DNA from: Psammoneis japonica
Taxonomy: Eukaryota
Direction of reading: 5' to 3'
DNA: 20,000 nucleotides
Assembly (NCBI GenBank): GCA_008632985.1
Contig: QPGO01000002.1
Location: forward strand, 1,043,048-1,063,047
In this document: positions 766 through 18,445 of the stretch, piece after piece
Layout: each line of letters opens with the position of its first letter
How positions within the stretch are numbered: the first letter of the stretch is position 1
Notes under the pieces: generated by a model
Seen by the model: only the letters and a program-made list of their open reading frames with translations
What the model was told of the DNA's origin: nothing
Databases searched by the model: none
Position numbers and translations under genes: made by a program

Positions 766-2633
766 TTAACCAGCACCGTCAACAATAGCATAAAACACAC
801 CCTCCTTGTCGAGTGAAGTGAGAATGTCATTGAGCGTTGAGCGCTTCTCGGGATCCGAAGGGACCAACGCCTGGTAGTGCCCGGGTGTATATTTGAGGGT
901 AAGCGTGTTTGCCTTTCCCCATGCCTTGTCATCATCAGCAACACTCGAGTAGTTCGTACCCTTGTATACGTCTACAAAACCAGATGTTGAGTCAAAGACG
1001 ACAATCGCCCACTCTGAGAGCAGTGTGGACGACTCAAGAGTGTAAACGAGAAAATCAGAAAACGCCTGAACCTCTTCGCCGACCATGCCTTGGTGCGCCC
1101 ACTCTGGATGAGCTTTTACCACCGCTGATTCAATGGTACGCTTAAGCTGCAGGGCTGTTTCACCAATCAGGGTCTTGTCCAATTTCTTCAACTCGGGGTC
1201 GTCATCTTCGGTCCCAACGAGAGCTCCAACTCCACGCAAGTAGGACGAGGCCAAGCTGAGATAGAAGCACGAATTAGCAATGCGTTGATTCTGCTCATTA
1301 CGGTTGAATGCTCCTGCGTCCTTTGTAACGAGGCCCAATGAGTCCACAGCATGAGCCATGTTGGATGTGTTGACGTCAATCATCGCACCGTGGTGTGCAA
1401 ACATATCTTCCACGAGTTTTCGGTGATCTTGTAACTCATTGTCCCAATAGGCCGTACTGTGAATAGTCTTGCTTTTTTCAGTTTTGGCCTCCTCTTCAAC
1501 AAACGTCTTTTCCTCGCGAGAGGTGGATTCGAGAAGAGATCTGTATGCTCGCGCCAAGTTAGCAAACTCGTTCGCACAACCACCCTTGTCTGGATGAATC
1601 TGTAACGCTTTCTTCCTGTAGGCTGAGCGAATCTGTGCTGGTTTCGCCGTCTCGGTAACACCCAAGGTCTCGTATACGCAAGGATCGGGCGCTGCACTTC
1701 GTCCCTTATCAACATTCTCTTGAGAAACGATCGAGTAGTCCAAGACGGACAGTTCAATCGCCCTTGCAATCTCGTCTTGTTCCATCTTTTCTGGATCCTC
1801 CATTGTGAGCTTGTAAAAGGTCTCACTGATAGAAGTCCCTAGCCTCAACGGCGTGTCCACGCCAATGTTGTACCTACCGGCTGCAGGAACAAGTTGGCCA
1901 CCAGCTTGCTCAGGTATAGGCACATGTGCCGATTGAGGAGACACGGATGCGGCAATTGGAACCAATTGTGCTTCTCTAAACGGTGTAGCACCTGGAGGAT
2001 CAATCTTATAGTCTGTAGAGACAACAAGATCACTAGAAGGCCCGCTCGTTTTGGAAGCACGAGCGAGCACAAGGGCAAGCTGCTCGTCAAGCCCGCTTTC
2101 TTCACTTGAAACTGCAGGAGGATCTTCAGACTTAGCCTCAAGTAGATCTTTCTCTTTGACTTCAGGTTCGGGTTGAGAAATAGCTTCTGATAGATCTTCC
2201 TCCTTGACTTCTTGTTTGGGTTTTGGCTTTTCTGCGGGCTTGGCTGGAAGGCTTTCTTTCTTCAATTCGGTCAACGCTTACTCTTAGTTTTTGGACGTTG
2301 TTGAAGATTGTATACAGCGGCGGGAATAAACGGAGTGATGTCAATATCTGACCAGTGCTGGTCTTCTTCCAACACTGACATTTGTTGAAGCCAGCCCCCG
2401 TCCACAATGGCCACGTTAAGATGTTGACATTTCAGCATGACATGTTCGACATGCGGAGTGACTGCATTTTCGTCGCCCACCCAGAGGGCGTGGGTCGCAT
2501 CGTATGGAGAACCCGCGACCTGTCCACCAAGGGCCTCGATGAAGAACCTCATTTCCTCGGCATGCTCATCGTGATGGTGGGGGCTTGAGATGATGTACAC
2601 AGATGCTCTGAAGAGGGGAGAATCAATTGTCAT
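766..2633 (-). CDS. Multidomain protein: BRCT-like N-terminus, UIM, DnaJ (J) domain, OTU-like cysteine-protease C-terminus; reading-frame break or intron near 2275
   Basis: ORF 2271..2645 (ATG 2633) has a BRCT-like pattern (LGG..V, ATHAL, IVDGGWL). ORF 766..2274 has a UIM-like EQDEIARAIELSVLD (~1740-1785), a J domain YETLGV...IRSAYRKKALQIHPDKGG...F...RAY (HPD at 1588-1596), and OTU-like NSCFYLSLA (Cys 1267-1269) and PGHYQAL (His 877-879). The two ORFs overlap by 4 nt and the downstream one has no ATG of its own at the start, so they are read as one gene. Confidence 0.8.
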
Positions 2634-3149
2634 TTTACTTGTCAACTTCGTCTTTTGCTTCGTCGAGCTACAGATGCGACTCTTTAAAGAGGGGTCGCCT
2701 TACGTGCAGTGCTCAAGGGGCGAGGTGTTAAAGGGGCGACGGTTCTTCTTGCTCTCAGGGTTGCTGTTCTTGGTTGTTTCGTTTTTTCGTTGAACAGCGA
2801 ACAGCGGTGACACGAAAAATCTTTGTACTGATAGCTGGAGGTAAGGTTATGGGTCCAGGGCGGCCGGTCCCTGCTCGCTTGTTTTAGCTTGAATTCTGTC
2901 ATTGTTTTAGCGTGCTTCACCGTGGTGAAAACCGCATGCCACAAGTTTGTAACGGGGTTTCCGCCATGGGACTTACATCAGAATTATGTTCTTCATGGTG
3001 TGTCAAATGATCGACGTGATTGTCCCATGGCAGAAGACTGATTTTTTAGAAAGCCAATGACCACCAGCAAGGAGCGAGCGAGATGAGCGGTCTTTGATTG
3101 TTCAAAGGTTGACCAAGAATGGGAGCCAACACCTGGCCCACACCATGTT

Positions 3150-4650
3150 GGCAGCACAGGCATGCTCATGAGTGACAGCTTGGTGGGCCTCTGCAATTAA
3201 GGTGCAGAGAGACTGTTGTGGAAGCCATGCCTGGGGAGGTGGACAGTGCACTTGCCAGGAGGGGCTTTGTTTTTGTTCTTGTGGCGCAACATGTGACAGA
3301 GTCACACAAGAACAAGGGCAGCTTTCACACAATTCAGAGATGCCACTGTTGCAGGCTGGCAGCTTGGAGGAGGATGCCAGTCACTGGGCCTGTCATGGTG
3401 ACTGAGCCCTTTCCTTTGCAACTTGCAAGCTGGTGTGTGTGTTTTGTCACAGCCCGCATGGTGGGCTGCATTTTCCCGCACATGTCAACCATGCTGCCTG
3501 CCACTGCCTCCTCTTGGAGCATCATGCCAGCCAGTTCAAGATCCAAATCATTGATGACCCCACCCACCTGAGTTGGCATCTTGTGTGGCGCAGCTTTGAA
3601 GATCTGTGCCGGAGGCCGTCAGCGAGAAATCTCGTCATTTGGCCCCAGCAGCAAGGCACCTCTGAGCTCCAGTTTGGCAGCACTGGTGCAGGCACACCAC
3701 AGAAGTGTTCTTTGGCAGCAGAAAAGAGTTTGGCCAGTTGTGTGGGGCATGGCACCATGTCTGAAGCTGGCATTTGGCACCTGAGTCTGTGAAAGACATG
3801 GGAGAGTTTTGCAAGTTTGACAACATCAGCTGAAAAACACAAAGCATCAATGATCCAACCCAGGATGACCCTGATGGCCAGCCATTTGGTCCCCCCCCCC
3901 CCCTCCTTCAAGAGCTTCTCAAGGGATGTGGTTTCTCTGCAGCAGTGGTCATTGGCTCACATGTTGAGCAAGCAGGAGAGCTGGTGGTTGTTGACATGGA
4001 GGCATTCTTGATGGCACAGATGATTGAGCCAAGCCTTGCAACCTTCTTGCATGACTCCAACATTGTTGTCTGGGTGAAGAACATCAAAATGTTGGAACTG
4101 CCTTCAGCTCTCAGCAGCATCTCTTCCATTGAATTGACTTTGGATCCATGAGCTTTTGCAAATGGCTGGCATGTGTTGGTTGGTCAGCAGGCAGAACATT
4201 GACTTGCAATGCCTTGTCTCATGGGCTGCCACCTGCTCCAGTGGGTGCACTGGAGGAGGACCCCATGCAGCAGCTGTGCATGCATTGGCCAAATCCGTTG
4301 GTGCCCACAAAAAAGCAAAACAGACTTTTGACCCAGCCCTTGGACAGAGCCAATGAAAAGGTGATGAGAGGCTCTTTGACCAGACCTTCCAGAGATGCCA
4401 AACCTGGTTTGGGTGTGTCAGCAGGCTTCAAGCCCACCCCAGAGAACCCGTTGGCATGATCCAGCTTGATGAGATAAAAACTGGAGATCTTGTGTGGGAC
4501 TCGACCCAGCATGCATCTGAATTGCATGGCTTCTGGCATCTGTGAGTGGTTAAACAAAAAGTGGAAGCAGATCGGGCAGACAATGAGAGGTGGAGTAGAA
4601 GGAAAGAAAAATGTTGGGGACACATTGCGATTGTCAGGTGATGGACAATT
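3150..4650 (-). mobile_element. Decayed DIRS/Ngaro-like (tyrosine-recombinase class) retrotransposon pol fragment (RT + RNase H), multiply frameshifted
   Basis: Colinear minus-strand remnants of motifs I recognise from this class: PEAMQF, YLIKLDHANGF (KxDxADGF), EPLITFSLALSKGWVKSLFCF (PLALPMGWxESPPYF), DLANA, HVNN at 3987-3998 (YVDD), KW...VILGWIID, CPTQLAKL (RPTRxAEL), INDLDLELAG (TNSDLELAG), KGSVTMTGP...LLQ (RNase H). No gag, recombinase or terminal repeats were recognised. Boundaries are approximate. Confidence 0.85.
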
Positions 4651-5109
4651 GTTTGCTGTTATGGACAAAGATGATTAGAGGAGTGCGCGAATGACACGTT
4701 TGTTTCCTCAGCGCGAGTTTATGCGAACGTCTGTGACAACAATTCAGGACGCAAGGAATGGGCAGGGAAAATAATTAGAAGCGCTGTCAACGAACATCTG
4801 GGAAAGCGAGAGCGAATCGCCCTCTCTGGATGTGGAAGGCTCCTCGTCGTTTCTTCCGAAAGGAGAGAACTGCGCAAAAGCTTGAGAGGTGCTCAATCCC
4901 TTAAAAAGTTGAGAATTCACACGTTATCAGAATGGGATTTACAGAACGAAAGCTACAAAAACAACAACAGCTTAAAGGTTGTCTCAAGCCTGCTGGCCGA
5001 TTTTAAGTAGAATTCACTCAAAACGTACTCTACATGTTGCCTTAGTTTTGCATTAAATGTGCTTACCAGCTGACTGGGTGGTTAGCGTTCTCCTGCTCTC
5101 TCGCTCTCT

Positions 5110-5661
5110 CTAGCGCTTGGACTTGCCACTAAGGCCAACTTCCATGAGTACGTTCCCGGAAATAGCAACGCTAGCCGCAAGTCCCGCTGTGTACGCCAAG
5201 GCACGAAAGGGTTGCTTCTGAACGAAGTAGTAAAGGAAGAAATGCGACAAGCGCGCGTATACAAAGGTCGTGACGGCTGTCGGAGCCCAAGCTGGTAGAG
5301 TGGCAGTGGCATACGGCCAGAGAGTAGCCACGGCAAAAAAGAATGGCTCGTTTTCGGTCGCGTTGCGTTCCATGGACTGGAGACGGTACAGATCATTCTC
5401 ACTTGTACCCGCCTTGACAAAGCAACCCATGGCGTAGTAAAAAAGGTTGAAAAAGCCTCCTCCGGTTGGATCGACCCACTTGGACGGATTGCTCTCGGGT
5501 GTTCCGTCGCCTCCTTCCTTGTCGGGAATGTTGCCGTACTTTCCCGTGAGGCCATTTGCGAGACGGACTCGAATCACCATTACATGATTAACGCACACTT
5601 TGACCGTCAGAACAGCGGCAGCCCATGCTAGAGTCTTGTTGTACGATTCCGTGCTGCTCAT
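5110..5661 (-). CDS. MAPEG family membrane protein (microsomal glutathione S-transferase / PGES-like), 183 aa
   Basis: ATG at 5661. Four hydrophobic segments, plus RLQSMERNATENEPFF (MAPEG R..H.N..EN equivalent), FVYARLSHFFLY and QPFRALAY motifs. Confidence 0.85.
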   Translation of the reverse strand: MSSTESYNKTLAWAAAVLTVKVCVNHVMVIRVRLANGLTGKYGNIPDKEGGDGTPESNPSKWVDPTGGGFFNLFYYAMGCFVKAGTSENDLYRLQSMERNATENEPFFFAVATLWPYATATLPAWAPTAVTTFVYARLSHFFLYYFVQKQPFRALAYTAGLAASVAISGNVLMEVGLSGKSKR

Positions 5662-5879
5662 GATGATAATGATGACTACGAAGCTGGCGAAAGGTGACTG
5701 CAACAAGACGGCGGCCGCGACTAGCTAGAGAGAGAGGGAGAGTGGAGAGAGTGATGAATAGAGGAAGTGAACAAGAGTTGTTGATGTCAACGTTCGAACG
5801 TTTCGTGGAGCGAAATCTTCTTCCCGCGATGGGAGAGCAACGGACGTACGACAACGGACGTGAAAGAATTTTGCATCAT

Positions 5880-6330
5880 ACATGCATTCGTTCATGATTG
5901 CTTCAGCGGCCACCGCCGTTTCGAACAGTGCAGTTAACTCCGGCTCTAACTCTAGTTTGTGGCAGAGGTCCATTTGCAGAGCTCAAGCTCCAGACTCAAT
6001 CACCACTGGGGTGGGTGGGAGGATCCTTTTAAAGCTGTCTGCCAGCTGTTGGTGCAACAAAACAAAAAACGACAACAGAGAGGACGACCTCGTCAGCCGA
6101 GAGAGACATCGGCAATTGGCGGTCAGGCAAACAGCAAGCATTTGACATCTGTCCTTTGTGGGACAGACTTGAGCCAATCAACAGCCCTTGCATCATCTTC
6201 CCCATTCTGCAGTGGCTGCCTCCACTTCCAGCGGCACAGCCAAGAACGGCGCCCCAGCTCTGACTCCAGCCAGCTGGAAGCAGAGGTCCATTTGCGGAGC
6301 TCCAGACCCAATCACTGGGAGCCTGACACA
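5880..6330 (-). pseudogene. Relic of an intron-containing gene with two copies of a ~35-aa module
   Basis: Identical 16-mer GCAGAGGTCCATTTGC at 5962-5977 and 6280-6295. Minus-strand translations are VIESGA*ALQMDLCHKLELEPELTALF and VIGSGAPQMDLCFQL/LESELG. Between them is an intron-like 3' end (GCTGAC at 6097-6092, pyrimidine tract, CAACAG| at 6046). An in-frame TGA and frameshifts are present. Confidence 0.5.
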
Positions 6331-9090
6331 CAGGCTCCCAGGCCCAGCTTTGATGAGGTTGCCAAAGGCAGACCAAACAAATTCGTGTGGGAAGGCAACA
6401 TGGGCAGGAAGGGAAAGGTCTCAGCACAAGGGAGCTTCTTGGTTGTTGATGCATGAGCTGAGTTTTCACCTTGAGAGAGCCCCCGGGATAAGAAACTTTG
6501 CATGGCAGGCTCAGCTTTGATGCAAAGACAGCACATTGTTTTGTCAGAGAAAGTGTCATTGTCCAATGAATGGGGGCAAGACTTGGCTGCACTGGTCGCA
6601 CGGCACTTCATCAGGCTCATCATGATGTGGGGAAATCATGAGCCACTGTTGTGAAAAAGACATGTTTCATTCAAAACACACCAGTGTTTAAATGCTGTTT
6701 GCCTGGACAACATGGCTGGCATTGTTTGTCATGCAGGCAAGGCTCAAAAACTTCTTTGCAGTCAATGGCAGAGTGTGTTTTGCCCAAATGGCTCATGGTT
6801 TCAGACCAGCATCTGGCATCTTTGGCATCACAGATTGTGGGACATGGGGCACCATCATCATCATGTGGATTGCAAATGGCCACAATGGCTGTCTTTGACA
6901 AAAGAAGCAGGAGAGAGAGTGCTCTCCTGGAGAAAAAAACCCCTCTCAGCTGGCACCACTGTTGAGCTGTGTGGCAAAGGTGGTTGCTGCTGCTGAAGAA
7001 AAGGGTGCTGCTGCTGCTGCTGCTGCTGCTGGAAACAAAGGGTGCAGCAGAGATTCACCACAAAATTGTGCTCACAAGAAAAGATTCAGACCATCAACAT
7101 GTCAATGAGATTGAAAAAATCCCTGCCATGCTTTCCTCAACAGAGACATGATGCTCCAGGAGCCAGCCCTGGGCAGGACTCTGTGTGACATGGGCCCACA
7201 AAATTCTGCATGGGTGCAAGCTTTGCAGTTCATGCACCAGGCAATGGGAACATGTTTGTTTTCAACACCAAATGAATGACCACACAATTGCCCCTCTTCA
7301 TGTTGGGTGTTTTTGAAAACCTGCTTCTGTTCCAGCGCACGCTCTGCACACATTGAAAAATTGCTTTGGAGACAAGAAAACATCAAAAGTGGGTGAATGG
7401 ATTGCCCAACAATTGGGCTGCAAAATGACACAAAATGCAGCCAAAGTCATGCAGAAATGTGTGTGCATGTCACATGGTGCATGATAAAAAATGTCAGCAT
7501 CACAGTTCAGCCAGTGCTGCAAGGCCCCACCTGGAGCTCGGGGGCACCCAGAGCTGCCAACAATCCCTTGGAATGGCCAAGCCTTGCAGCACAAAAGCCT
7601 CACAACAAAAGGCTCAGTTTTTGCATGTTGTCTCACCTGAGCAAACTCCCTGCTTCTCACTCAGATGGACCCACACGGAAGGAGAGCCAACATTCGTGGC
7701 AAGGGTTTTTCAACTCATTGTGTCCTGGAGCCTTCTTCTTGGCCCCAGCTTTTGCAGTGCCTCTCAGAAAGAGACTGTCACCATTGGCTTTTGTGAAAGT
7801 GCAAGAAAGAGTGTGCTCTCAAAGATTGAAAGTTGACTGTGTGAGGATGTCATGCAGGAGGCTGAAAACAAGTCTGAGTTTGAAACTCTTTTTTAAAGTG
7901 GTGCTGCTTTGTTTGTGATCAGCGTGGTTGAACAACATGATGACCCCACATGTGGAAAGTGGAGGTGAGTTTCAATGCAAAAGATTTGTCAATTTTTGCA
8001 GCAAGAACAAGAGATGAAGGCAGCTGCAAAACTTCCCTCTTCCTCCATCTGGAGGTGAGGTCTTGGGAGCTCACACGCATTTGTCTGCTGCCAGTGTGCC
8101 CTGTTCATTGTCATTGCTGCAAGCCAGACATTCATTGCAGTTGACACTTTGCCAAACTGTCCCTGCCACAAGACATCAAGACCCACCTCATGCCCCTCCT
8201 TGAGCAGCACTGCCACTTCACGTCACCCCTGGATGGGTTGGCAGCAACAGATCTGACATTGAAGCAACTCCAGCAACTCTTGCATCAGCAAACTTTGCTC
8301 AGGTCCTGGAGTTCTTGGGGCAGCTGCAGCAAACACTGACAGTGGACTCAGCTCGGGCACTGGGTGGAGCAAAGCAATTCAAGCAACTGTGCCACCACCA
8401 GAGCAGAGGAGCCGACTCAAGCCCCCCAGCCCCCCCCCCCCCCCCAGTGGACATGCTGGCCCAACTCCAGCAACCACAAAGAGCAGCAAACTCAGCTCAA
8501 GCCCTGGTTGCAGTGGAGCTCTGGATTTGGCAGAGTGACTCCATCAGCTGTTGCCAGCAGCAAGCTTGTGTCACATTGGCGGCCTCCCATGCCCAACCAA
8601 CATCTGCGCTGGCAGTTGGGTGTCCCACACGCCACCTGCTGGGCTGAGCCTGGGCTCAGACATTGATGGATGGAAAGATGGATCTCCTCCCTCCTGCTGC
8701 ATCTCTCAGGCTGGCTCCAGCGGAATGGGCACAAGTCCTGAGTTGGGTGCTGGCTCGCTCCTTGCAGAGAGCATGTGGGAAGAAGCAGCGCACCAGCACC
8801 CAATCCTGGCATTGGCAAGTGCTGGCTGTGCGCTGCAGCTGGCTGGCCGCACTTCTCTTGTGACGTGCTGACAAAGCCTCAGATGCAGCAGTTTGTTGTG
8901 TTTTTGTCAATGGCGCTGCCATGATGACGACAAGTGGGGGGGGGCTCATCACTTTCCACCCGAACAACCATGTGAGAAGGAGGAGAATTCAGACAGACGA
9001 TTCCTCACCAGGGCCGCCCGCATGTGGGCAATGCATTGTGGTGCCCTTGGGTGTGTTTCGTGCACAATTCTTCGCAGAAAAGTTTTGCGT
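5960..9090. other. CpG- and TpA-depleted hypermutated island 2 (decayed coding or repeat sequence of unidentified origin)
   Basis: About five TA dinucleotides in ~3.1 kb by manual scan (~6030, 6489, 6689, 7485, 7894), few CG, and abundant TG/CA. Overlapping short ORFs in all frames are Cys/His/Gln/Trp-rich and almost Tyr-free. Confidence 0.85.
7006..7031 (+). repeat. (TGC)8 microsatellite
   Basis: tgctgctgctgctgctgctgctgctg, with a shorter TGC run at ~6985-6995. Confidence 0.95.
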
Positions 9091-9366
9091 GTGTAGATTT
9101 CATGCCAGTGACAAGTGCGGTGACTGGCGGTCACCTTGCCTCTTGAGAGTCAGTCAATGCAGTAAAAAGAGCGCCCTCCCAAAGCAGTGCGGTCGACGCG
9201 GCGGCGGGTGTGGCGGTTATTCCACTGCGATCGGCGGACGCGGCACACTTTTTCTCAAAGACGAACGAACAGTTGCACAGCATTGGCGGCAACAGCTTTT
9301 GGAAAATCGCTCTGCCCTCTGCCATGGCGTTTATTTGCATTGCTACTAGAAGTACTTACAACAAGC

Positions 9367-10833
9367 ATGAGTAAATTAGAGAGACTCCTCTTGATGAGCT
9401 TGCTGGGTTTTGCCTTGCTTCAGCTGCTTTCCTTTTACAACATTCACCATGCTACCAACGTGCGAGTTGGTGACGACATGCAAATAGAAACAAACAGAAA
9501 TTCATACAAAAACGACAACAATCGGTCTTTGATGGATTATTCTCCTTCAAGACAAGAATCAGCCTCGGCCTGTCTCTTGATCATGGATGACAATCACTAC
9601 TTGATTGAATGGATTGCCTATCATTATCACGTGTTGAATTTGCGCCACTTGATTGTCGCCACTGACCCCAAGAGTAAAACGTCCCCCAGTCGAATCTTGA
9701 ATCGCTGGAGAAACTACATTCAAATTGAAGAATGGACCGATGACGATTTTTGGCCAAGCAATACTACCAAGAAGTTAAGAAAATATGGCGGAGCGAGCGG
9801 TGAATTGAGAAAGCATCGTGCTCGACAAGGGCTCTTCACGTTGCAGTGCTTGCGGCATTTCAAGAGAAAGGACAAATCGTGGGTCCTACTCACGGATACT
9901 GACGAATATACAACCATTAACCCAAAATTTACACCAAGCGTCCTTCCGCAACAACAGCAACGACCAATAATCGAACAGCCCGGGTCGGTCTTGACCTTTC
10001 TTAATGAAATGTTGCTTCCCGACAAAAAGGTCAAGGAGATTGACTATCCATGTGTGTATATGTATCGACATCAATTCAGCAACAAGGAGAGTCCACGCGA
10101 CAAGGTCCAAGACGGGGTTCCTTCTTCACAACTGAATCCCTTTCATTTCCAAACACTCCGTTGGAGATATTGTGATTGGATTGATTTATGGCACAATGCG
10201 ACGATTGCCCATTGCAAGGTAACGAGGAAGTTGCCAGGAAAAACAATGATTGATCTAAAGAGATTGAGATTATTGGATTTGTATCATCCCGCCAATGCTG
10301 GCAATCCACACTTTCCCCTCGAGGGACTGTGCCAATCGACGTGGCCCAAGCTGGCAACCTCCCCACTGGCGGTTCATCACTACATTGGCACGTTGGAACA
10401 GTGGCTGTACCGAACCGGAGATACCCGTGGCAACGCGTATCGAATGGCCTTGTATGACCACACTAACGACTTTACAGGTAAGTCTGAAAATGATAATGTC
10501 CGATTGTGGCTCAAGGGTTTCGTGGACAATGTGGGTCAAGCGGAAGCGGTGCGATTGTTGCAAGGAGTTGGACAACTCGAACCACTGCCGCAACAACAAA
10601 AACTCGTGGAGATTTCAAATCAAACTTCTAGCAATACTACACAAGACGTTTACAAGGTGGGAGAAAGAGTTCAAGGAAACTACAAGGGAGACGGATACTG
10701 GTTTTGGGTTGACATTTTACGAGTGTATCCTGGAGGCTATTACAACATCTTGTACGATGATTGTTCCCAAGAATTGGGAGTGCCCGCATCCATGCTTCGA
10801 CGAACAGGCAAAGTGGATGAGCTAGAAAGGTAG
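9367..10833 (+). CDS. Type II membrane glycosyltransferase-like protein (GT92/DUF23 or Glyco_tranf_2_4-like) with C-terminal Tudor/Agenet-like domain, 488 aa
   Basis: ATG at 9367 followed by a signal-anchor LLLMSLLGFALLQLLSF. Family motifs SACLLIMDDNHYLIEWIAYHY, WVLLTDTDEY (DxD), PGKTMIDL and VHHYIGT. C-terminal YKVGERVQGNYKGDGYWFWVDILRVYPGGYYNILYDD. Confidence 0.85.
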   Translation: MSKLERLLLMSLLGFALLQLLSFYNIHHATNVRVGDDMQIETNRNSYKNDNNRSLMDYSPSRQESASACLLIMDDNHYLIEWIAYHYHVLNLRHLIVATDPKSKTSPSRILNRWRNYIQIEEWTDDDFWPSNTTKKLRKYGGASGELRKHRARQGLFTLQCLRHFKRKDKSWVLLTDTDEYTTINPKFTPSVLPQQQQRPIIEQPGSVLTFLNEMLLPDKKVKEIDYPCVYMYRHQFSNKESPRDKVQDGVPSSQLNPFHFQTLRWRYCDWIDLWHNATIAHCKVTRKLPGKTMIDLKRLRLLDLYHPANAGNPHFPLEGLCQSTWPKLATSPLAVHHYIGTLEQWLYRTGDTRGNAYRMALYDHTNDFTGKSENDNVRLWLKGFVDNVGQAEAVRLLQGVGQLEPLPQQQKLVEISNQTSSNTTQDVYKVGERVQGNYKGDGYWFWVDILRVYPGGYYNILYDDCSQELGVPASMLRRTGKVDELER

Positions 10834-11040
10834 ACATTGTCTTGAGAATAATGTAGCTGGCTTTCCAGAAAGATGCTTGCCATTGTCGAAATGCACAAAA
10901 AATCTGAATAAGTTGAGGCGCCACCTTTTGGCTTGTTCGGGTCGTCGGAAGCCCTCGAGATTTTCCTGTGCACAGAACTGTCATTTCGCGTGGTTATGGG
11001 CAAGAAGGGGCTGCGTGTGATTTAATTTTGAGGTGCTGGT

Positions 11041-12500
11041 NGGTTTACCTTCCATTCACACCTGCCAGTCCTGAACAACCCTTCTCTTGCTTGCCGACAT
11101 GTCAAGCTCATTGTCCGAGTGGCAAACTCTCTGCTTTCGTCCCAGTGTCCAAAAGTGTGAAATTGAGTCAGTCTTTGTTGAAGGCAAGCCTCTTCCTCCT
11201 TGGAAGCCATGTTTTTGCTCCAGACGTTGTGCTGTTCTTGAACCAATTTCTGAATGTGACTGTCCTTTGCTGTTGAAGTGTGGATGCTGTGTGTCCAGTG
11301 CCAAAGAAAGCAACAAACCCTTTCACATGTCTCATTTCATTTCAACCAGTTGTCTCCAGTGGGCATCACTGCAAGGTGGTGCAATGTCTGGCCAACTGCA
11401 CTTGCTTCTGCTGCATCCCCAAGTGTGTGGGCTGGCTGGCACCAGCATTGCCAGGCAAAGGTGGGCTAAAACAGCACTTTGCACCAGTTTTTTTTTTTTG
11501 TGTTGACAAGCCCTCCTCTGGAGTGAGAGAATCTGCTCCCGTTGATTGATGATTTTCAACCGACAAACACCAGCATTCTCTTGGCATCCCACTCTATGAT
11601 GCAGTGGCAATGGTTTGTTTCACACAATGGCTTTTTTAACCTCAATTTCTTTTGGCAGCTTGTGAAAGTTGTGATGTTTGCCCATCCCAGCTCCAGCTTG
11701 CACCGATGATCAAAAGGACAGGTGGGGGTGACGGCTTGCTCCATGCTCTCAACTCTTGACATCAAGCTCCAACAAGCCTTAACCCCTGCCAATGTTTCCA
11801 TGATGTCTGTCATCATGGCCATGTCTTTTGCCTTGGGAGCATCATGGTTTTGCTGCATCACAGCATTGCCAACAACAGATGACGACACAGCATGGTGTGT
11901 GGCTCATTGCGCTCAATTGCAAACAAAGCCTGGATCATGACAATCCCAAAGAGATCACTTTGGACATGACTGTGCAGCAGAAGTGGAGCAACATAGAGTC
12001 CAGCAGGAAACCATCATGATCAGACATTGGGAAACCTGTGAAAAATCTGCATGTTCTGATGTGCGCCCACAAAGAGATCCATCAACCCACTGAACAGCAC
12101 CGCACTTAGACAGGGAGAGAGAGATTCTGTGGTCTGCTTGCACTGGCTGTGGTTGAGTCATTTTAGCATTGTCATGATGCTCTTTCAAGGCCGAGACTTT
12201 GTGCTCTCCTCAGTTTAAAACAAAGAGAGAAGCTCCTTTTTTGGGACTTCAGATGCTGCAGTGACGTGTTGGGGCAAGCAGCTGCATTGTGCTTCCACTT
12301 CAGTGCAGAATGTGGCACAAGAGTTTGAGTTCCCAAACACAGCTTTTTTGTCACAAAAGACATTGTGATCCCAGTGGTGCTTGCCAACTGATTCTTTGTC
12401 CTTCTAGCGTGCAGCCAGCAAATCGCACAATTTCATCAACTGAGCAATGATTGATCAGCAACAGTGGCAGGGGAGTGGAAATCCATGGATCTGCCCCTGC
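11041..12500. other. CpG- and TpA-depleted hypermutated island 3 (origin unidentified)
   Basis: About ten TA in ~1.45 kb by eye, low CG, TG/CA-rich, with Tyr-poor Cys/His-rich ORFs in all frames. It begins at the single N at 11041 and lies between two convergent genes. Confidence 0.8.
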
Positions 12501-12704
12501 CCCGCACCACACTGTATGTCCTCTGAAGTTACACACAAATTTTGGGTTGTAGGTTATGACAGACATTTCCTCCATTCCTTGTGCGAACATGACAGCCTAC
12601 ACTCTACAGGAAATATTCCAAACAAGGCGAGAACAAAACAATTGTGTTTCTCTCGTGTAGCTAAATTAAAAGCAATGTCAAGAAACGGTAATACCTGCTT
12701 CCAA

Positions 12705-13585
12705 TTAAACATCCAGAAAATCCCCTTGTGTTGTTCTGCTGTCATAAGCAGGGGGTTGCATTCTTCCCTGATTCCCACTGGCGTGTCCAGCCGAAAAATT
12801 ACGCATTTCATTCTCCACTTCACGAATAAAGGCCAAACTGCCCCCAGCCGGAGAAAAAACCACTGTAAGTCGTGGACATCGAATCATATCAAAACAGCAC
12901 GATCGATCTGGTTTTCCCGCAGACCGTGGCCACATAAAAAATGGCGTGGAGGGAGCTGTGGTGACAATCGCAACGCCATCCATGGGCGTTGTCAGCATGC
13001 CTCGGTAGGGCCATACGCGCATAAGGGAACAGTTTCCACCACCCACTCTTTGTAGAGACACAATCTTATCAAAGGGAACGTCGACTTCAATGTTTCCAAT
13101 CCAGAACCGCAAGCCACCGTCCGTCGTAATGTCAACACATCGGACCATATTGTACCAGAACCACGCCACAGCCCACAAATTGCCAATCGAAACAGAAACA
13201 ACCGTACCATGTGCACCAATCGGGACAGCAGCGACTAGCAGTAATACAAAGATGGTTTCCATCAAAATAAAGCGCAGTTTAAAAGCTAAAATCAACAGAC
13301 GAAAAAATAAATCAGTGAGTTGCGCGTTTTCAAATCCCCCACGTACAAACATACCAGGATTCACGTAGAATCCAATGCGCTCGCGTACTTACACCACGAA
13401 AAGGGAGCGTTTGCAAAGCTCAAAATAACACTCCCATCGTCCGTCACATACGTCAGTGTTTGTGCAATTAACAATGGATCTTCATCGACAATCAATTCAT
13501 GTTGTTGTTGTTGTTGCTGCTGTGGTTGTCCTCGTTGCATGGCACCGTTCATATCGTCGTCGTCGTTTGCGGTTGACGATGCCAT
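12705..13585 (-). CDS. Two-exon membrane protein (2 TM followed by a PH-like beta-rich segment), ~257 aa, function unknown
   Basis: Exon 1 is 13585-13393 (MASSTANDDDD...polyQ...APFSW). The intron is 13392-13286 (GTAAGT...TTTTAG, 107 nt, phase 1) and exon 2 is 13285-12705, joining in frame. Two hydrophobic helices are followed by VRCVDITTDGGLRFWIGNIEVDVPFDKIVSLQRV, which resembles bacterial-type PH domains. Confidence 0.8.
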
Positions 13586-16512: not shown

Positions 16513-18445
16513 TCATTGAAATGAATCGACAATCTCTTCGTCGACTACGCTTTCTTCCGTCTCGGTCTTGAAAGCGACCGGGACTTCTTCTGTTACCTTG
16601 GATGCTTTGATCATTTCCCAGGCTTCATTTTTCGCCGCCACGTCGCCAACATTCGCCGTGTACTCTTCGTACTCGTACCCAAACGGTTCTCCCAGGAGAG
16701 GAGTGACGGACTGCGGTAGCGTTCCTTTGCCAGTGACACTGTAGCTTACAATATTCAAAAACATATCAAACGCCACTGGAAACGGAATTCTCACAATGAA
16801 ATTGAGTCCAAACCACATTCGCGCATACCACGTTTCGTGTTTGTCATTGTTGGAAGACCGGGCCATCCCGCCAAGAATCCACCCCACAATTCCAATGGCA
16901 GTCGAAAGAATCCATCAAAGAATCCACGCAGTCCCTCGACATTTTGTTTCATGAGAAATTCTCCTCCAAACACGGCAAAGTTACGCTGACGGATATTGTC
17001 GGGAGACCAAATGGCGTGGTATGCGTTTGCTGCCGCGCGGTCCAAGTTGGGTTCCGACTTTTGCAATTCGGATTGAATGGCCTTGGCCATGTCGGTGGCA
17101 CCCATCATGACGCGACACAAGTGATAACCCGTGCTGGGATGAACCATGGCGGCGGCTCCACCCAAACCCACGACACGCTGGTTCTTGAGTGGGAGTGGAC
17201 CGCCCATGGGAATGTAACAAAATCTAGAACAAGAGAGACACGAGTGAGAATACGAAACGGCATTGAAACATCACATCGATGCAAAGAAAGGAACCAAGCA
17301 AAAACTCACTCTTCCTCTTCAATATCTGTAACTTTAATACCCAAATGTTCCAAACGACGAAAGCATCGGTCCTTGCATTCTTGAAAACTAATCGCTGGAC
17401 GCGCCACGAGGGAGGTTTCTTCGAAAAAAATCGTATTGTCCTTGAGTGGCATGGCATACATAAAGGTGGGAGCCGCCGTAGCTTTTTGCAACCACGTTTC
17501 GTCGGAATCAAAATGATCCGTTCGATAGTCAAACAATGTCATGGCTTCCTTGTCGTAGGGACCAATGCGATCCGCCGACAAGGACGATGATTCATCGACA
17601 TTGACCAAGGCACCGTAGGCAATCTGAAAACCAGGAGGATCATTGGGATAGGATTTGGTGTCCTTGAGGACAAGACCCGTTTCGTGGCCGGTGCAGTCCA
17701 CCACGAGCTTGGCACGAACCATCGTGGGTGTTCCATCCTTGGCCTCGAGTCGAATGGTGGTTCCCTCTTCGTCGTGTACCAGCGACCCGGCGGGAGAATA
17801 CACGTTTGTGCTTGTGGCGGTGGAAATGTGATTGGATTCCAATACACGGTACGAGGTCGAGAGCGATTCTCTCAATGCATACTTGTCGACACGACAATAG
17901 GGACGATCGAGACGTTTTCGTTCTTGTACTGGAATATCAAAAGATCCACCAAAGAAACAATCTGTAACTTGCCATTCTCGATCAATGCATTGTCCGTTCT
18001 TGCCATTCTCCAACTCGACTCCCTGTTGCTTGTAGGCTTGTACAATGGCATCCCATTCATCTCTCCAAACACCATAATTGGGAGCCCATTCCCGATCATA
18101 ATTGGCATCCGCCAATAAAACATTGAGTTGTTTATTGGAATCCAACAAGGATGCAATCGCTCGTGCTGCAGGACCACTCCCGAGAACGAGTACATCACAA
18201 ACCTCATCATAATTTGCATTGAATGATGAAGCAAACAATCTTGTGGTGGAGGCATGACGTTTTTGCTGTAAATTAGTCAAACCAAAACCATTCGTCTGTG
18301 ACAAAGAATCTCCTGACTTGGAATGATAATGTGTCACTCGACTGGATGAGCTTGTAATCCTACTGGAAGAACGATGCAAACCAGGTGAGACCAGAGCCGA
18401 AACCGATCCTGCCGACAACAGCAAGAACGTCCAAGACGTCTTCAT
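16513..18445 (-). CDS. LCYB: Lycopene beta-cyclase, plastid-targeted; 2 exons; apparent 1-nt deletion at ~16851
   Basis: Exon 1 is 18445-17310 and the intron is 17309-17224 (GTGAGT...TTCTAG, 86 nt), joining EEEE-FCYIPMGGPLP. Motifs: DVLVLGSGPA, PNYGVW.DE, FQIAYG, PTFMYAMP, FFEETSLVARP, GGAAAMVHPSTGY, FFDGFFRLP. The frame switches at GWPGLP|NNDKHETW and continues to the stop at 16513. Confidence 0.93.

What the first reader, a model, noticed from the sequence alone, without database searches (positions are those of the whole stretch)
3100..12500. Three islands losing both CpG and TpA: candidate RIP-like genome-defence hypermutation with an unusual TpA->TpG/CpA component
Seen: islands at ~3100-4650, ~5960-9090 and ~11040-12500 are strongly depleted of TA and CG and rich in TG/CA. 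I find no TA at all between 3201 and 4474 (~1270 nt), whereas flanking genes and intergenic DNA use TA and CG freely, and the transitions occur over tens to about a hundred bases. Established: CG loss is the expected footprint of 5mC deamination, and diatoms methylate transposons at CG. Fungal RIP creates TpA rather than removing it. Inference: a second, targeted process converts TpA to TpG/CpA (A:T->G:C) in the same silenced DNA, for example TpA-directed DNA adenine deamination, a mutagenic adenine or thymine modification, or biased repair. I do not know of a described mechanism for this.
Basis: partly seen in the sequence, partly recalled or inferred. Interest (0 to 1): 0.9.

Follow-up and report, generated by a model that had tools for sequence, protein, structure and literature searches.

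The report
TpA- and CpG-erased DNA islands, diatom
Three unrelated stretches of non-coding DNA between normal genes of a diatom have lost almost every TA and CG pair to TG/CA, the footprint of a TA-directed hypermutation so far reported only once, in an unrelated alga, here combined with ordinary CG decay.

Summary
Three islands (3089-4475, 5957-9093, 11047-12510) have TA o/e 0.00-0.09, CG o/e 0.11-0.19 and CA/TG o/e 1.7-1.9. Flanking genes are ordinary. Contigs built from a public DNA run reproduce the islands and bridge their borders.

The TG+CA surplus equals the TA+CG deficit, and TG and CA are interspersed at random. This fits site-by-site transitions on either DNA strand.

The three islands are unrelated to each other. 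They show no coding signal, no protein or virus relative and no transposon ends. Other copies or neighbours in the genome are also TA/CG-free.

TA loss reaches further than CG loss, so two processes are likely.

A 2026 preprint shows, by mutation accumulation, TpA->TpG/CpA hypermutation of integrated viral DNA in Bigelowiella natans. It does not mention CpG or diatoms.

Best reading: the same kind of TpA-directed editing, run to saturation, plus methyl-CpG decay in silenced repeat or foreign DNA of a diatom. The direction of change, the nature of the target and the enzyme were not shown here.

The parts
3089..4475 (.). Island 1 core, essentially free of TA and CG
   Evidence: (3100-4475): TA 1 (o/e 0.01), CG 10 (0.10), TG 162, CA 154. 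The TA-free gap runs 3198->4475. The left border is sharp, after the CG at 3088. X1 contigs bridge both borders (records 1-3).
4476..4700 (.). Graded right margin of island 1
   Evidence: TA 4 (o/e 0.24), CG 6 (0.61), intermediate between island and flank.
5082..5724 (-). Untouched host gene between islands 1 and 2 (MAPEG family)
   Evidence: Pfam PF01124, E 1.8e-09. Flank B has TA o/e 0.60 and CG 1.11.
5957..6300 (.). Left margin of island 2: TA lost, CG partly kept. It carries a 42-nt direct repeat (5962-6003 and 6280-6315).
   Evidence: TA 1 (P 3.2e-05), CG 10 (o/e 0.39). Repeat. X1 contigs diverge upstream exactly at 5959, and one joint goes back from 6218 to 5965.
6301..8720 (.). Island 2 core
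   Evidence: TA 4 (o/e 0.03), CG 17 (0.11), TG 263, CA 280. Summed contig depth is 142-261 at 7063-7764 against about 52-62 elsewhere. This hints at further copies, but the tool warns that summed depth is not a copy number.
8721..9093 (.). Right margin of island 2: TA-free, but CG not significantly depleted
   Evidence: TA 0 (P 7.8e-07), CG 15 (o/e 0.52, P 0.13). This shows that the TA and CG footprints are separable.
9187..10833 (+). Untouched host gene between islands 2 and 3 (weak glycosyltransferase-2-like match)
   Evidence: Pfam PF13704, E 1.4e-05, below the curated cut-off. Flank C has TA o/e 0.51 and CG 0.91.
11047..12510 (.). Island 3, with slightly more residual TA and CG
   Evidence: TA 9 (o/e 0.09), CG 17 (0.20), TG 165, CA 157. 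One X1 contig spans 9502-13000 with 2 other letters and 6 gaps (record 8).

Best explanation
The islands are silenced, non-genic DNA in a diatom nuclear genome, most likely relics of repeats or foreign DNA. Two context-specific transition processes acting on the DNA itself have converted them.

(1) A TpA-directed A:T->G:C hypermutation turns TpA into TpG or CpA, depending on which strand is hit. It has run to saturation.

(2) The usual CpG->TpG/CpA decay of methylated cytosine.

Process (1) is the same kind of process that mutation accumulation has shown in integrated viral DNA of the chlorarachniophyte Bigelowiella natans. There the proposed, unproven enzyme is an ADAT2-type adenine deaminase acting on DNA.

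Shown here: the composition, its confinement to three unrelated segments, the transition mass balance, the random choice of strand, and the partial uncoupling of TA loss from CG loss.

Inferred: the direction of change, the targeting logic, homology with the B. natans process, and the enzyme.
For: - Composition and statistics.
- Real in reads-derived contigs that bridge the borders.
- Mass balance: YR steps make up 0.234-0.238 of dinucleotides in the islands and 0.234-0.244 in the flanks, so the CA+TG surplus equals the TA+CG deficit.
- Simulation: converting every TA and CG of the flanks to TG/CA raises the k-mer correlation with the islands from 0.64/0.61/0.57 to 0.93/0.90/0.88 for k=2/3/4.
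- Strand choice: TG and CA are in random order (runs z 1.03, -1.11, 0.35). This fits hits on either strand of a palindromic dinucleotide.
- Not one element's own composition: the three islands share no similarity.
- Selectivity: host genes 100-300 nt away are untouched.
- Two footprints: TA loss extends where CG is retained (8721-9093: TA 0, CG o/e 0.52).
- Rate: an equilibrium would need a TA loss rate about 99-141 times a background transition rate. The B. natans process is about 1000 times background. From the preprint's own numbers it is about 1.1e-5 per TpA per generation, which is 99% loss in about 4e5 generations (my calculation).
[quoted passage not shown] 0 of 427 bins pass in 80 metagenomic loci of diatoms and other algae.
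- Not confined to this locus: the six loose-end consensus sequences shown (46 more were not), from contigs that leave the islands for other places, hold 0 TA and 0 CG in 161 nt. The TA/CG count is by my eye from the output; the probability is P 3e-7 at flank rates.
- Some allele or copy differences sit at these very sites: 7485 TA vs CA, 7978 CA vs TA, 7217/8 CA vs TG, and 7277, 7951, 8766 and 8790 CG vs TG/CA.
- Precedent: bioRxiv 10.64898/2026.01.13.699255 (abstract, Results and Discussion read).
Against: - No polarised substitution data. The direction TA->TG/CA is inferred from composition only.
- Only 1 CA<->TG double difference was seen among the 25 differing positions listed inside the islands. 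If each copy had been converted independently, about half of the ancestral TA/CG sites should differ this way. Conversion therefore largely predates the divergence of the copies or alleles seen, and current activity is not shown.
- The target class is unknown. 0 of 55 ORFs reach a Pfam cut-off (7 weak sub-threshold matches). 18 read-through frames gave no match beyond one at E 0.5. There were 0 hits among 1.84 billion representatives for one frame of island 2 and no IMG/VR relative. No terminal repeats or target-site duplications were found.
- The B. natans process shows no CpG component, and its viral regions are far from saturated (Rho_TpA 0.45). Identity of the two processes is therefore an assumption.
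- The islands are 2-7 points richer in G+C than the simulation predicts (0.48-0.53 vs 0.463).
- The platform of run X1 is unknown.
Confidence: 0.6

Rival explanations
1. A mutagenic by-product of a symmetric base modification, with no deaminase defence involved. In this reading TpA, like CpG, carries a maintained mark in heterochromatin, for example oxidised thymine (5hmU/5fU, JBP/TET-type) or adenine methylation. Mispairing or faulty repair of the marked base then gives T->C or A->G.
For: Both lost dinucleotides are palindromic, and strand choice is random. The right borders are graded, as expected from the spreading of a chromatin state. A preference of thymine-modifying enzymes for TpA in dinoflagellates and kinetoplastids is recalled from memory and was not checked here.
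Against: No report of such a mark in diatoms was found (the 15 papers holding '5-hydroxymethyluracil' and 'diatom', judged from the listing's titles and abstract starts only, concern dinoflagellates). The left borders are sharp, and one coincides with a repeat junction (5959). TA loss and CG loss do not share the same footprint.
Confidence: 0.15
2. One dual-specificity deaminase makes both changes: C->U in CpG and A->I in TpA. Both give TpG on the edited strand.
For: TA and CG are lost together in the island cores. The preprint cites ADAT2 enzymes of Trypanosoma and amphioxus as acting on both A and C (I read the preprint, not the primary papers).
Against: The footprints separate at both margins of island 2. 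In B. natans 230 of 231 mutations in the hypermutable regions were A->G/T->C at TpA, with no CpG component. CpG decay through methylation already explains the CG loss.
Confidence: 0.1
3. The composition is intrinsic. The segments arrived already TA- and CG-poor (a foreign donor, or elements selected for RNA stability or against nuclease sites), and nothing happened to them in place.
For: Other copies or neighbours are equally TA/CG-free. CA<->TG double differences between copies are few. CpG and UpA are both suppressed in many RNA viruses and mRNAs (PMC3829696, seen only as a listing and abstract start).
Against: Three unrelated sequences share the trait. TA o/e of 0.00-0.03 is far below any natural genome-wide bias I know of (recalled). 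No such window occurs in 464 kb of metagenomic loci from diatoms and other algae (0 of 2202 400-nt windows). There is no virus or protein relative. The composition would still need a process of this kind somewhere.
Confidence: 0.07
4. RNA-level hyperediting of retroelement transcripts (ADAR- or APOBEC-like), fixed by reverse transcription.
For: ADAR prefers a 5' U. This is stated in the preprint's Discussion.
Against: Editing of one RNA strand predicts TG without CA, or long same-strand runs. Here TG is about equal to CA (162/154, 330/356, 165/157) and their order is random. No reverse transcriptase relic was found.
Confidence: 0.03
5. A sequencing or base-calling artefact at modified bases, carried into the assembly.
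For: The platform of X1 is not on record, and X1 may not be independent of the assembly. A single N lies at 11041, on the border of island 3.
Against: Contigs at about 55x word depth agree letter for letter over hundreds of bases and resolve half-depth alleles. The effect is absent from the neighbouring genes.
Confidence: 0.03

Closest known systems
TpA-restricted hypermutation of integrated NCLDV and virophage DNA in Bigelowiella natans (bioRxiv 10.64898/2026.01.13.699255, 2026)
   Same: TpA->TpG/CpA on both strands. TpA depletion is coupled to CpA+TpG enrichment in clustered 1-kb windows. The effect is confined to particular non-host-like segments next to normal DNA. The window passes the preprint's numerical criteria.
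   Different: The host is a stramenopile (a diatom), not a rhizarian. The islands are saturated (Rho_TpA 0.00-0.11 against 0.45 for the NCLDV region). They are small (1.4-3.1 kb against 25-186 kb). CpG is lost as well. No viral or transposon genes are recognisable. No de novo mutations were observed here.
Repeat-induced point mutation (RIP) of ascomycete fungi
   Same: A saturating hypermutation made only of transitions, limited to segments of non-genic DNA, with some leakage into the flanks.
   Different: The direction is opposite. RIP turns CpA into TpA. Here TpA/ApT is 0.01-0.11 and (CpA+TpG)/(ApC+GpT) is 1.96-2.23. Dependence on repeats and a premeiotic stage were not shown.
CpG decay by deamination of 5-methylcytosine in methylated transposons (vertebrates, plants; DNMT5-dependent CG methylation of transposons in diatoms, PMC9998398)
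   Same: CG->TG/CA, with CG o/e 0.1-0.2 in silenced DNA.
   Different: It does not touch TpA. The CG-depleted zone here is narrower than the TA-free zone.
ADAR / APOBEC editing of repeats and retroelements in animals
   Same: Deamination used against selfish nucleic acids. ADAR favours a U before the edited A.
   Different: These act on one strand and leave strand-consistent clusters. Here the strand choice is random. ADARs are known only from animals (recalled).

Membership tests
TpA-directed hypermutation of foreign DNA (B. natans type) | [quoted passage not shown] | tested here: met
   Bins 6001, 7001 and 8001 pass consecutively, and bins 3001, 11001 and 12001 also pass (6 of 20 bins). 0 of 427 bins pass in 80 metagenomic loci of diatoms and other algae.
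TpA-directed hypermutation of foreign DNA (B. natans type) | New mutations are almost only A->G/T->C, and all fall on TpA | tested here: inconclusive
   Only unpolarised differences between the window and run X1 are available: 2 TA<->CA differences, 1 CA<->TG double difference (two positions) and 4 CG<->TG/CA differences. Together these make 8 of the 25 differing positions listed inside the islands. A mutation-accumulation or trio design is needed.
TpA-directed hypermutation of foreign DNA (B. natans type) | The target is integrated viral or other foreign/selfish DNA | tested here: inconclusive
   No Pfam, protein or IMG/VR relative and no transposon ends were found. There are hints of further copies elsewhere: depth peaks and loose ends that are also TA/CG-free.
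TpA-directed hypermutation of foreign DNA (B. natans type) | A local rate orders of magnitude above background | tested here: inconclusive
   Inferred only. The observed TA frequency (0.0025) needs a loss rate about 99-141 times a background transition rate if the islands are at equilibrium.
Fungal RIP | C->T at CpA, giving high TpA/ApT and low (CpA+TpG)/(ApC+GpT). The usual cut-offs of about 0.89 and 1.03 are recalled, not checked. | tested here: not met
   TpA/ApT is 0.01, 0.03 and 0.11. (CpA+TpG)/(ApC+GpT) is 2.23, 2.15 and 1.96. The flanks give 0.60 and 1.22.
Fungal RIP | Triggered by sequence duplication; depends on a RID/DNMT4-type enzyme | not testable with these tools
   No genome is held. 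Diatom DNMT4 is related to RID, but its function is unknown (PMC9998398, passages read).
Methyl-CpG decay | CpG depletion with a matching TpG/CpA surplus in DNA that is CG-methylated | tested here: inconclusive
   Depletion is met (o/e 0.10-0.20). Methylation itself cannot be read from the sequence.
RNA hyperediting fixed by retrotransposition | Strand-consistent runs of A->G (or C->T) | tested here: not met
   Runs test on the order of TG and CA: z 1.03, -1.11 and 0.35. TG and CA counts are near equal.

The most novel reading that the evidence does not exclude
Diatoms have a DNA-level, TpA-directed editing defence homologous to the one just seen in a chlorarachniophyte. That would make it ancient within the SAR supergroup. 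In diatoms it works on the same silenced DNA as CpG methylation and erases every TpA within a few hundred thousand generations. Because both targets are palindromic dinucleotides, the TpA arm may rest on a heritable symmetric mark that has not yet been discovered, and not on a free-running deaminase.
Probability: 0.3. Interest if true: 0.85.

Novelty: new member of a known kind. Interest (0 to 1): 0.62.

Why it matters
TpA-directed hypermutation has so far one report, in one rhizarian alga, and no known enzyme. A saturated example in a diatom has three consequences.

- It would show that the process is not a curiosity of one species. It would place it in one of the most important groups of marine primary producers.
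- It would show what the end state looks like: zero TpA over more than 1 kb, next to intact genes.
- It would give a simple, annotation-free sequence signature (TA and CG both near zero, CA/TG about 1.8) for finding silenced foreign DNA in algal genomes.

It also raises a testable question: are TpA editing and CpG methylation two arms of one silencing pathway? Finally, it warns annotators that homology searches will miss such DNA.

Tried and rejected
- Own genome: none is held, so no genome-wide scan and no alignment of copies.
- RNA: no RNA holder is listed for the stretch.
- Coding or transposon origin. 55 stop-to-stop ORFs of at least 70 aa: none reaches a Pfam cut-off, with 7 weak matches at E 0.0035-0.064. 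18 read-through frames: only DUF3008 at E 0.5. The longest ORFs are no longer than in Markov simulations (P 0.83, 0.66, 0.55). The period-3 signal is weak (3.3-7.2 against 4.3-28.7 for the flanking genes).
- Protein searches. ORF 7397-7915 has no homologue among 39 word-sharing candidates. Frame +0 of island 2 has 0 hits in 1.84 billion representatives. Only this one frame of one island was searched in that way.
- Virus origin: no match in the phage collection. In IMG/VR 2 pattern matches were found, and neither was confirmed.
- Hypermutated copies of neighbouring genes: purine/pyrimidine-coded 28-mers of the islands match nothing else in the window. The hits to the 80 loci (18, 32 and 3) are of the order expected by chance from the printed per-word rate, about 0.0036 per 28-mer (the per-island figure is my estimate).
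- Shared family: blastn with word size 7 finds nothing between the islands except a 42-nt internal repeat.
- Terminal inverted or direct repeats, target-site duplications: none convincing.
- Rfam: no match.
- Higher-order k-mer constraints beyond the two dinucleotides: none.
- A shared motif in the residual CG clusters: not significant.
- Earlier notes of this scan: nothing relevant.
- Related genomes: 80 metagenomic loci around lycopene cyclases of diatoms and other algae (464,082 nt) hold no such window. These loci are gene-rich contigs, and none is from a close relative (at most 70% identity over full-length matches; one 109-residue fragment, L078, reaches 76%). This says the trait is unusual, not that it is absent from other diatoms.
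- Literature. Searches found no description of TA+CG-free islands in diatoms. One search failed on a term format and was not repeated. Its Tables S2 and S6-S11 may hold context details that bear on the comparison.
Full report
**Observation.** A sliding-window count over the 20-kb window shows three blocks in which TA and CG almost vanish and TG and CA nearly double.

| Block | TA count (o/e) | CG count (o/e) | CA o/e | TG o/e |
|---|---|---|---|---|
| 3200-4475 | 0 (0.00) | 10 (0.11) | 1.89 | 1.78 |
| 6100-9000 | 4 (0.02) | 33 (0.17) | 1.73 | 1.82 |
| 11050-12500 | 9 (0.09) | 16 (0.19) | 1.80 | 1.75 |
| four flanks | (0.51-0.64) | (0.86-1.11) | 0.93-1.20 | 1.09-1.30 |

The TA-free gaps are 1277 nt (3198->4475), 1200 nt (7894->9094) and 796 nt. 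The longest gap outside the islands is 214 nt. Against the flank rates the Poisson probabilities lie between 1e-14 and 1e-37.

The left borders are sharp (after 3088, 5953 and 11046). The right borders are graded over 200-370 nt. No other dinucleotide or higher-order word is unusual once TA and CG are accounted for.

**Is it real DNA?** One public DNA run (coded X1) holds 88% of the sampled words of 2800-5000. Its contigs match the islands and cross their borders: 2500-3251; 3261-3903 with no difference; 3947-5847; and 9502-13000 with 2 other letters and 6 gaps. Half-depth variants show that two haplotypes are resolved.

The platform of X1 is not on record, and X1 may be the data behind the assembly. 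This excludes an assembler artefact. It does not exclude every chemistry artefact, but I rate that possibility low.

**Where it lies.** The flanking ORFs are ordinary eukaryotic genes: DnaJ, MAPEG, a weak GT2-like match, a zinc-type dehydrogenase and lycopene cyclase. The lycopene cyclase ORF is 57-68% identical to its best relatives. All 11 hits that carry an organism name among the best 120 are diatoms (that these genera are diatoms is my own knowledge). No hit exceeds 68%, so the species' proteome is not in the collection, and the organism is not Bigelowiella.

The layout is gene - island - gene - island - gene - island - gene. The genes between the islands have normal TA and CG.

**What the islands are.** They look non-coding.
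- 0 of 55 ORFs of at least 70 aa reach a Pfam cut-off.
- 18 read-through frames give nothing.
- ORF lengths are at chance for this composition, and the period-3 signal is weak.
- One ORF and one 1046-residue read-through frame have no relatives in the two large protein collections.
- There is no match in the phage collection or IMG/VR and no Rfam family.
- No terminal repeats or target-site duplications were found.

The three islands are unrelated to each other. In purine/pyrimidine coding they are also unrelated to the rest of the window, so they are not converted copies of the neighbouring genes.

There are hints that segments recur elsewhere in the genome.
- 49 of the 85 contigs laid are only 90-95% alike.
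- Summed depth rises to 142-261 at 7063-7764, against about 52-62 elsewhere.
- Contigs leave the window's sequence at 5959 (exactly the left border of island 2), 7418, 7435, 11156 and 11188.
- The six loose-end consensus sequences shown (46 more were not shown) hold no TA and no CG in 161 nt. I counted this by eye from the output. The probability is P 3e-7 at flank rates.

The trait therefore exists at other loci of this genome. The tool warns that summed depth is not a copy number.

**Mutational footprint or native composition?** Four results point to transitions at YR steps on the DNA.
1. YR steps make up the same share of dinucleotides in the islands (0.234-0.238) as in the flanks (0.234-0.244). 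The CA+TG surplus therefore equals the TA+CG deficit, and the purine/pyrimidine pattern looks undisturbed.
2. Converting every TA and CG of the flanking DNA at random to TG or CA reproduces the island k-mer spectrum much better than the untouched flanks do (r 0.93/0.90/0.88 against 0.64/0.61/0.57 for k=2/3/4). The islands remain somewhat richer in G+C than predicted. That would fit AT-rich ancestors.
3. TG and CA are equally frequent and in random order. This is expected if either strand of a palindromic dinucleotide can be hit. It is not expected from editing of a single RNA or DNA strand in runs.
4. Three unrelated sequences share the trait, while genes a few hundred bases away do not.

At equilibrium the residual TA frequency would require a loss rate per TA of about 100-140 background transition rates. 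For CG the figure is about 21-31. The TA arm is thus the stronger and more unusual one.

TA loss also reaches further than CG loss. At 8721-9093 there is no TA (P 8e-7), but CG is at o/e 0.52 (P 0.13). At 5957-6300 there is 1 TA and 10 CG. This argues for two processes with overlapping targets.

**Evidence against recent or independent conversion.** Of the 25 differing positions between the window and X1 contigs that lie inside the islands, 8 change the state of a TA or CG site: TA/CA at 7485 and 7978, CA/TG at 7217-7218, and CG versus TG/CA at 7277, 7951, 8766 and 8790. Only one of these events is a CA-versus-TG double difference. Independent conversion of each copy would give many double differences. 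Most of the conversion therefore predates the divergence of the alleles or copies seen. The differences cannot be polarised, and ongoing activity is not shown.

**Comparison with what is known.** Fungal RIP goes the opposite way. Here TpA/ApT is 0.01-0.11 and (CpA+TpG)/(ApC+GpT) is 1.96-2.23.

CpG decay through cytosine methylation explains the CG arm. In Phaeodactylum, loss of DNMT5a removes methylation and de-represses young transposons. Many diatoms also carry a RID-related DNMT4 of unknown function (PMC9998398, passages read).

Nine full-text searches found none for diatoms. They did find a 2026 preprint on Bigelowiella natans, of which I read the abstract, Results and Discussion.
- In mutation-accumulation lines, 231 of 302 nuclear point mutations fell in two integrated viral regions, at about 6e-7 per site per generation.
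- 230 of the 231 were A->G or T->C, all of them on TpA.
- Only some lines were affected.
- The genome holds 124 clusters of TpA-poor, CpA+TpG-rich windows.
- A set of TpA-poor predicted genes is enriched in reverse-transcriptase and DDE domains.
- An ADAT2 homologue is proposed as a DNA adenine deaminase.

The preprint's main text contains neither 'CpG' nor 'diatom'. Our window passes its numerical criteria in 6 of 20 1-kb bins, three of them consecutive. None of 427 bins passes in 80 metagenomic loci of diatoms and other algae. From the preprint's numbers I calculate about 1.1e-5 mutations per TpA per generation, which means 99% loss in about 4e5 generations. Saturation as seen here is therefore plausible on a short evolutionary time scale.

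**Verdict.** The best explanation is TpA-directed A:T->G:C hypermutation of the B. natans kind, run to completion, together with methyl-CpG decay in silenced repeat or foreign DNA of a diatom (confidence about 0.6).

It is a further member, in a new lineage and in an extreme end state, of a kind of system described only in one recent preprint. It is not a categorically new process.

Three things remain open:
- the direction and timing of the changes;
- what the islands once were;
- whether the enzyme is an adenine deaminase, a thymine- or adenine-modifying system, or something else.

Noticed in passing
islands, 15 residual TA (e.g. 3198, 6030, 6689, 7894, 11637, 12216): The few TA that survive are mostly in TTAA (7 of 15) or TTA/TAA context (12 of 15, against 210 of 512 in the flanks; Fisher P 0.003). 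Either the process spares TpA flanked by T/A, or new TA arise at T-run/A-run junctions.
   Followed up: partly
window 11041 (and 11038-11110): The single N of the window lies exactly on the left border of island 3. The X1 contig lacks 4 bases at 11038 and has single-base insertions at 11054 and 11110. The assembly is locally uncertain there.
   Followed up: no
window 8016-9519: X1 contigs here have about half the usual depth (21-25 against about 55). Half-depth variants continue into the start of the GT2-like gene at 9441-9501. The two haplotypes seem strongly diverged, or one lacks this part.
   Followed up: no
window 5962-6003 and 6280-6315: A 42-nt direct repeat 318 nt apart sits at the left end of island 2. 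One X1 contig joins 6218 back to 5965, which suggests copy-number variation of a unit of roughly 250-320 nt.
   Followed up: partly
window 3893-3906, 8422-8445, 8935-8943, 11489-11500, 7006-7031: Long homopolymer runs of C, G and T and a (TGC)8.7 array lie inside the islands. No such runs were seen in the flanking stretches that were read.
   Followed up: no
window 3589-3633 and 6070-6120: The residual CG in otherwise CG-free DNA are clustered: 5 within 45 nt and 6 within 51 nt. A shared motif between the two clusters was not significant.
   Followed up: partly
window 17306-18445 (-): The lycopene cyclase ORF covers only the first 379 residues of relatives that are about 560-650 residues long. 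The rest must lie downstream on the minus strand, behind an intron or a frame change.
   Followed up: no
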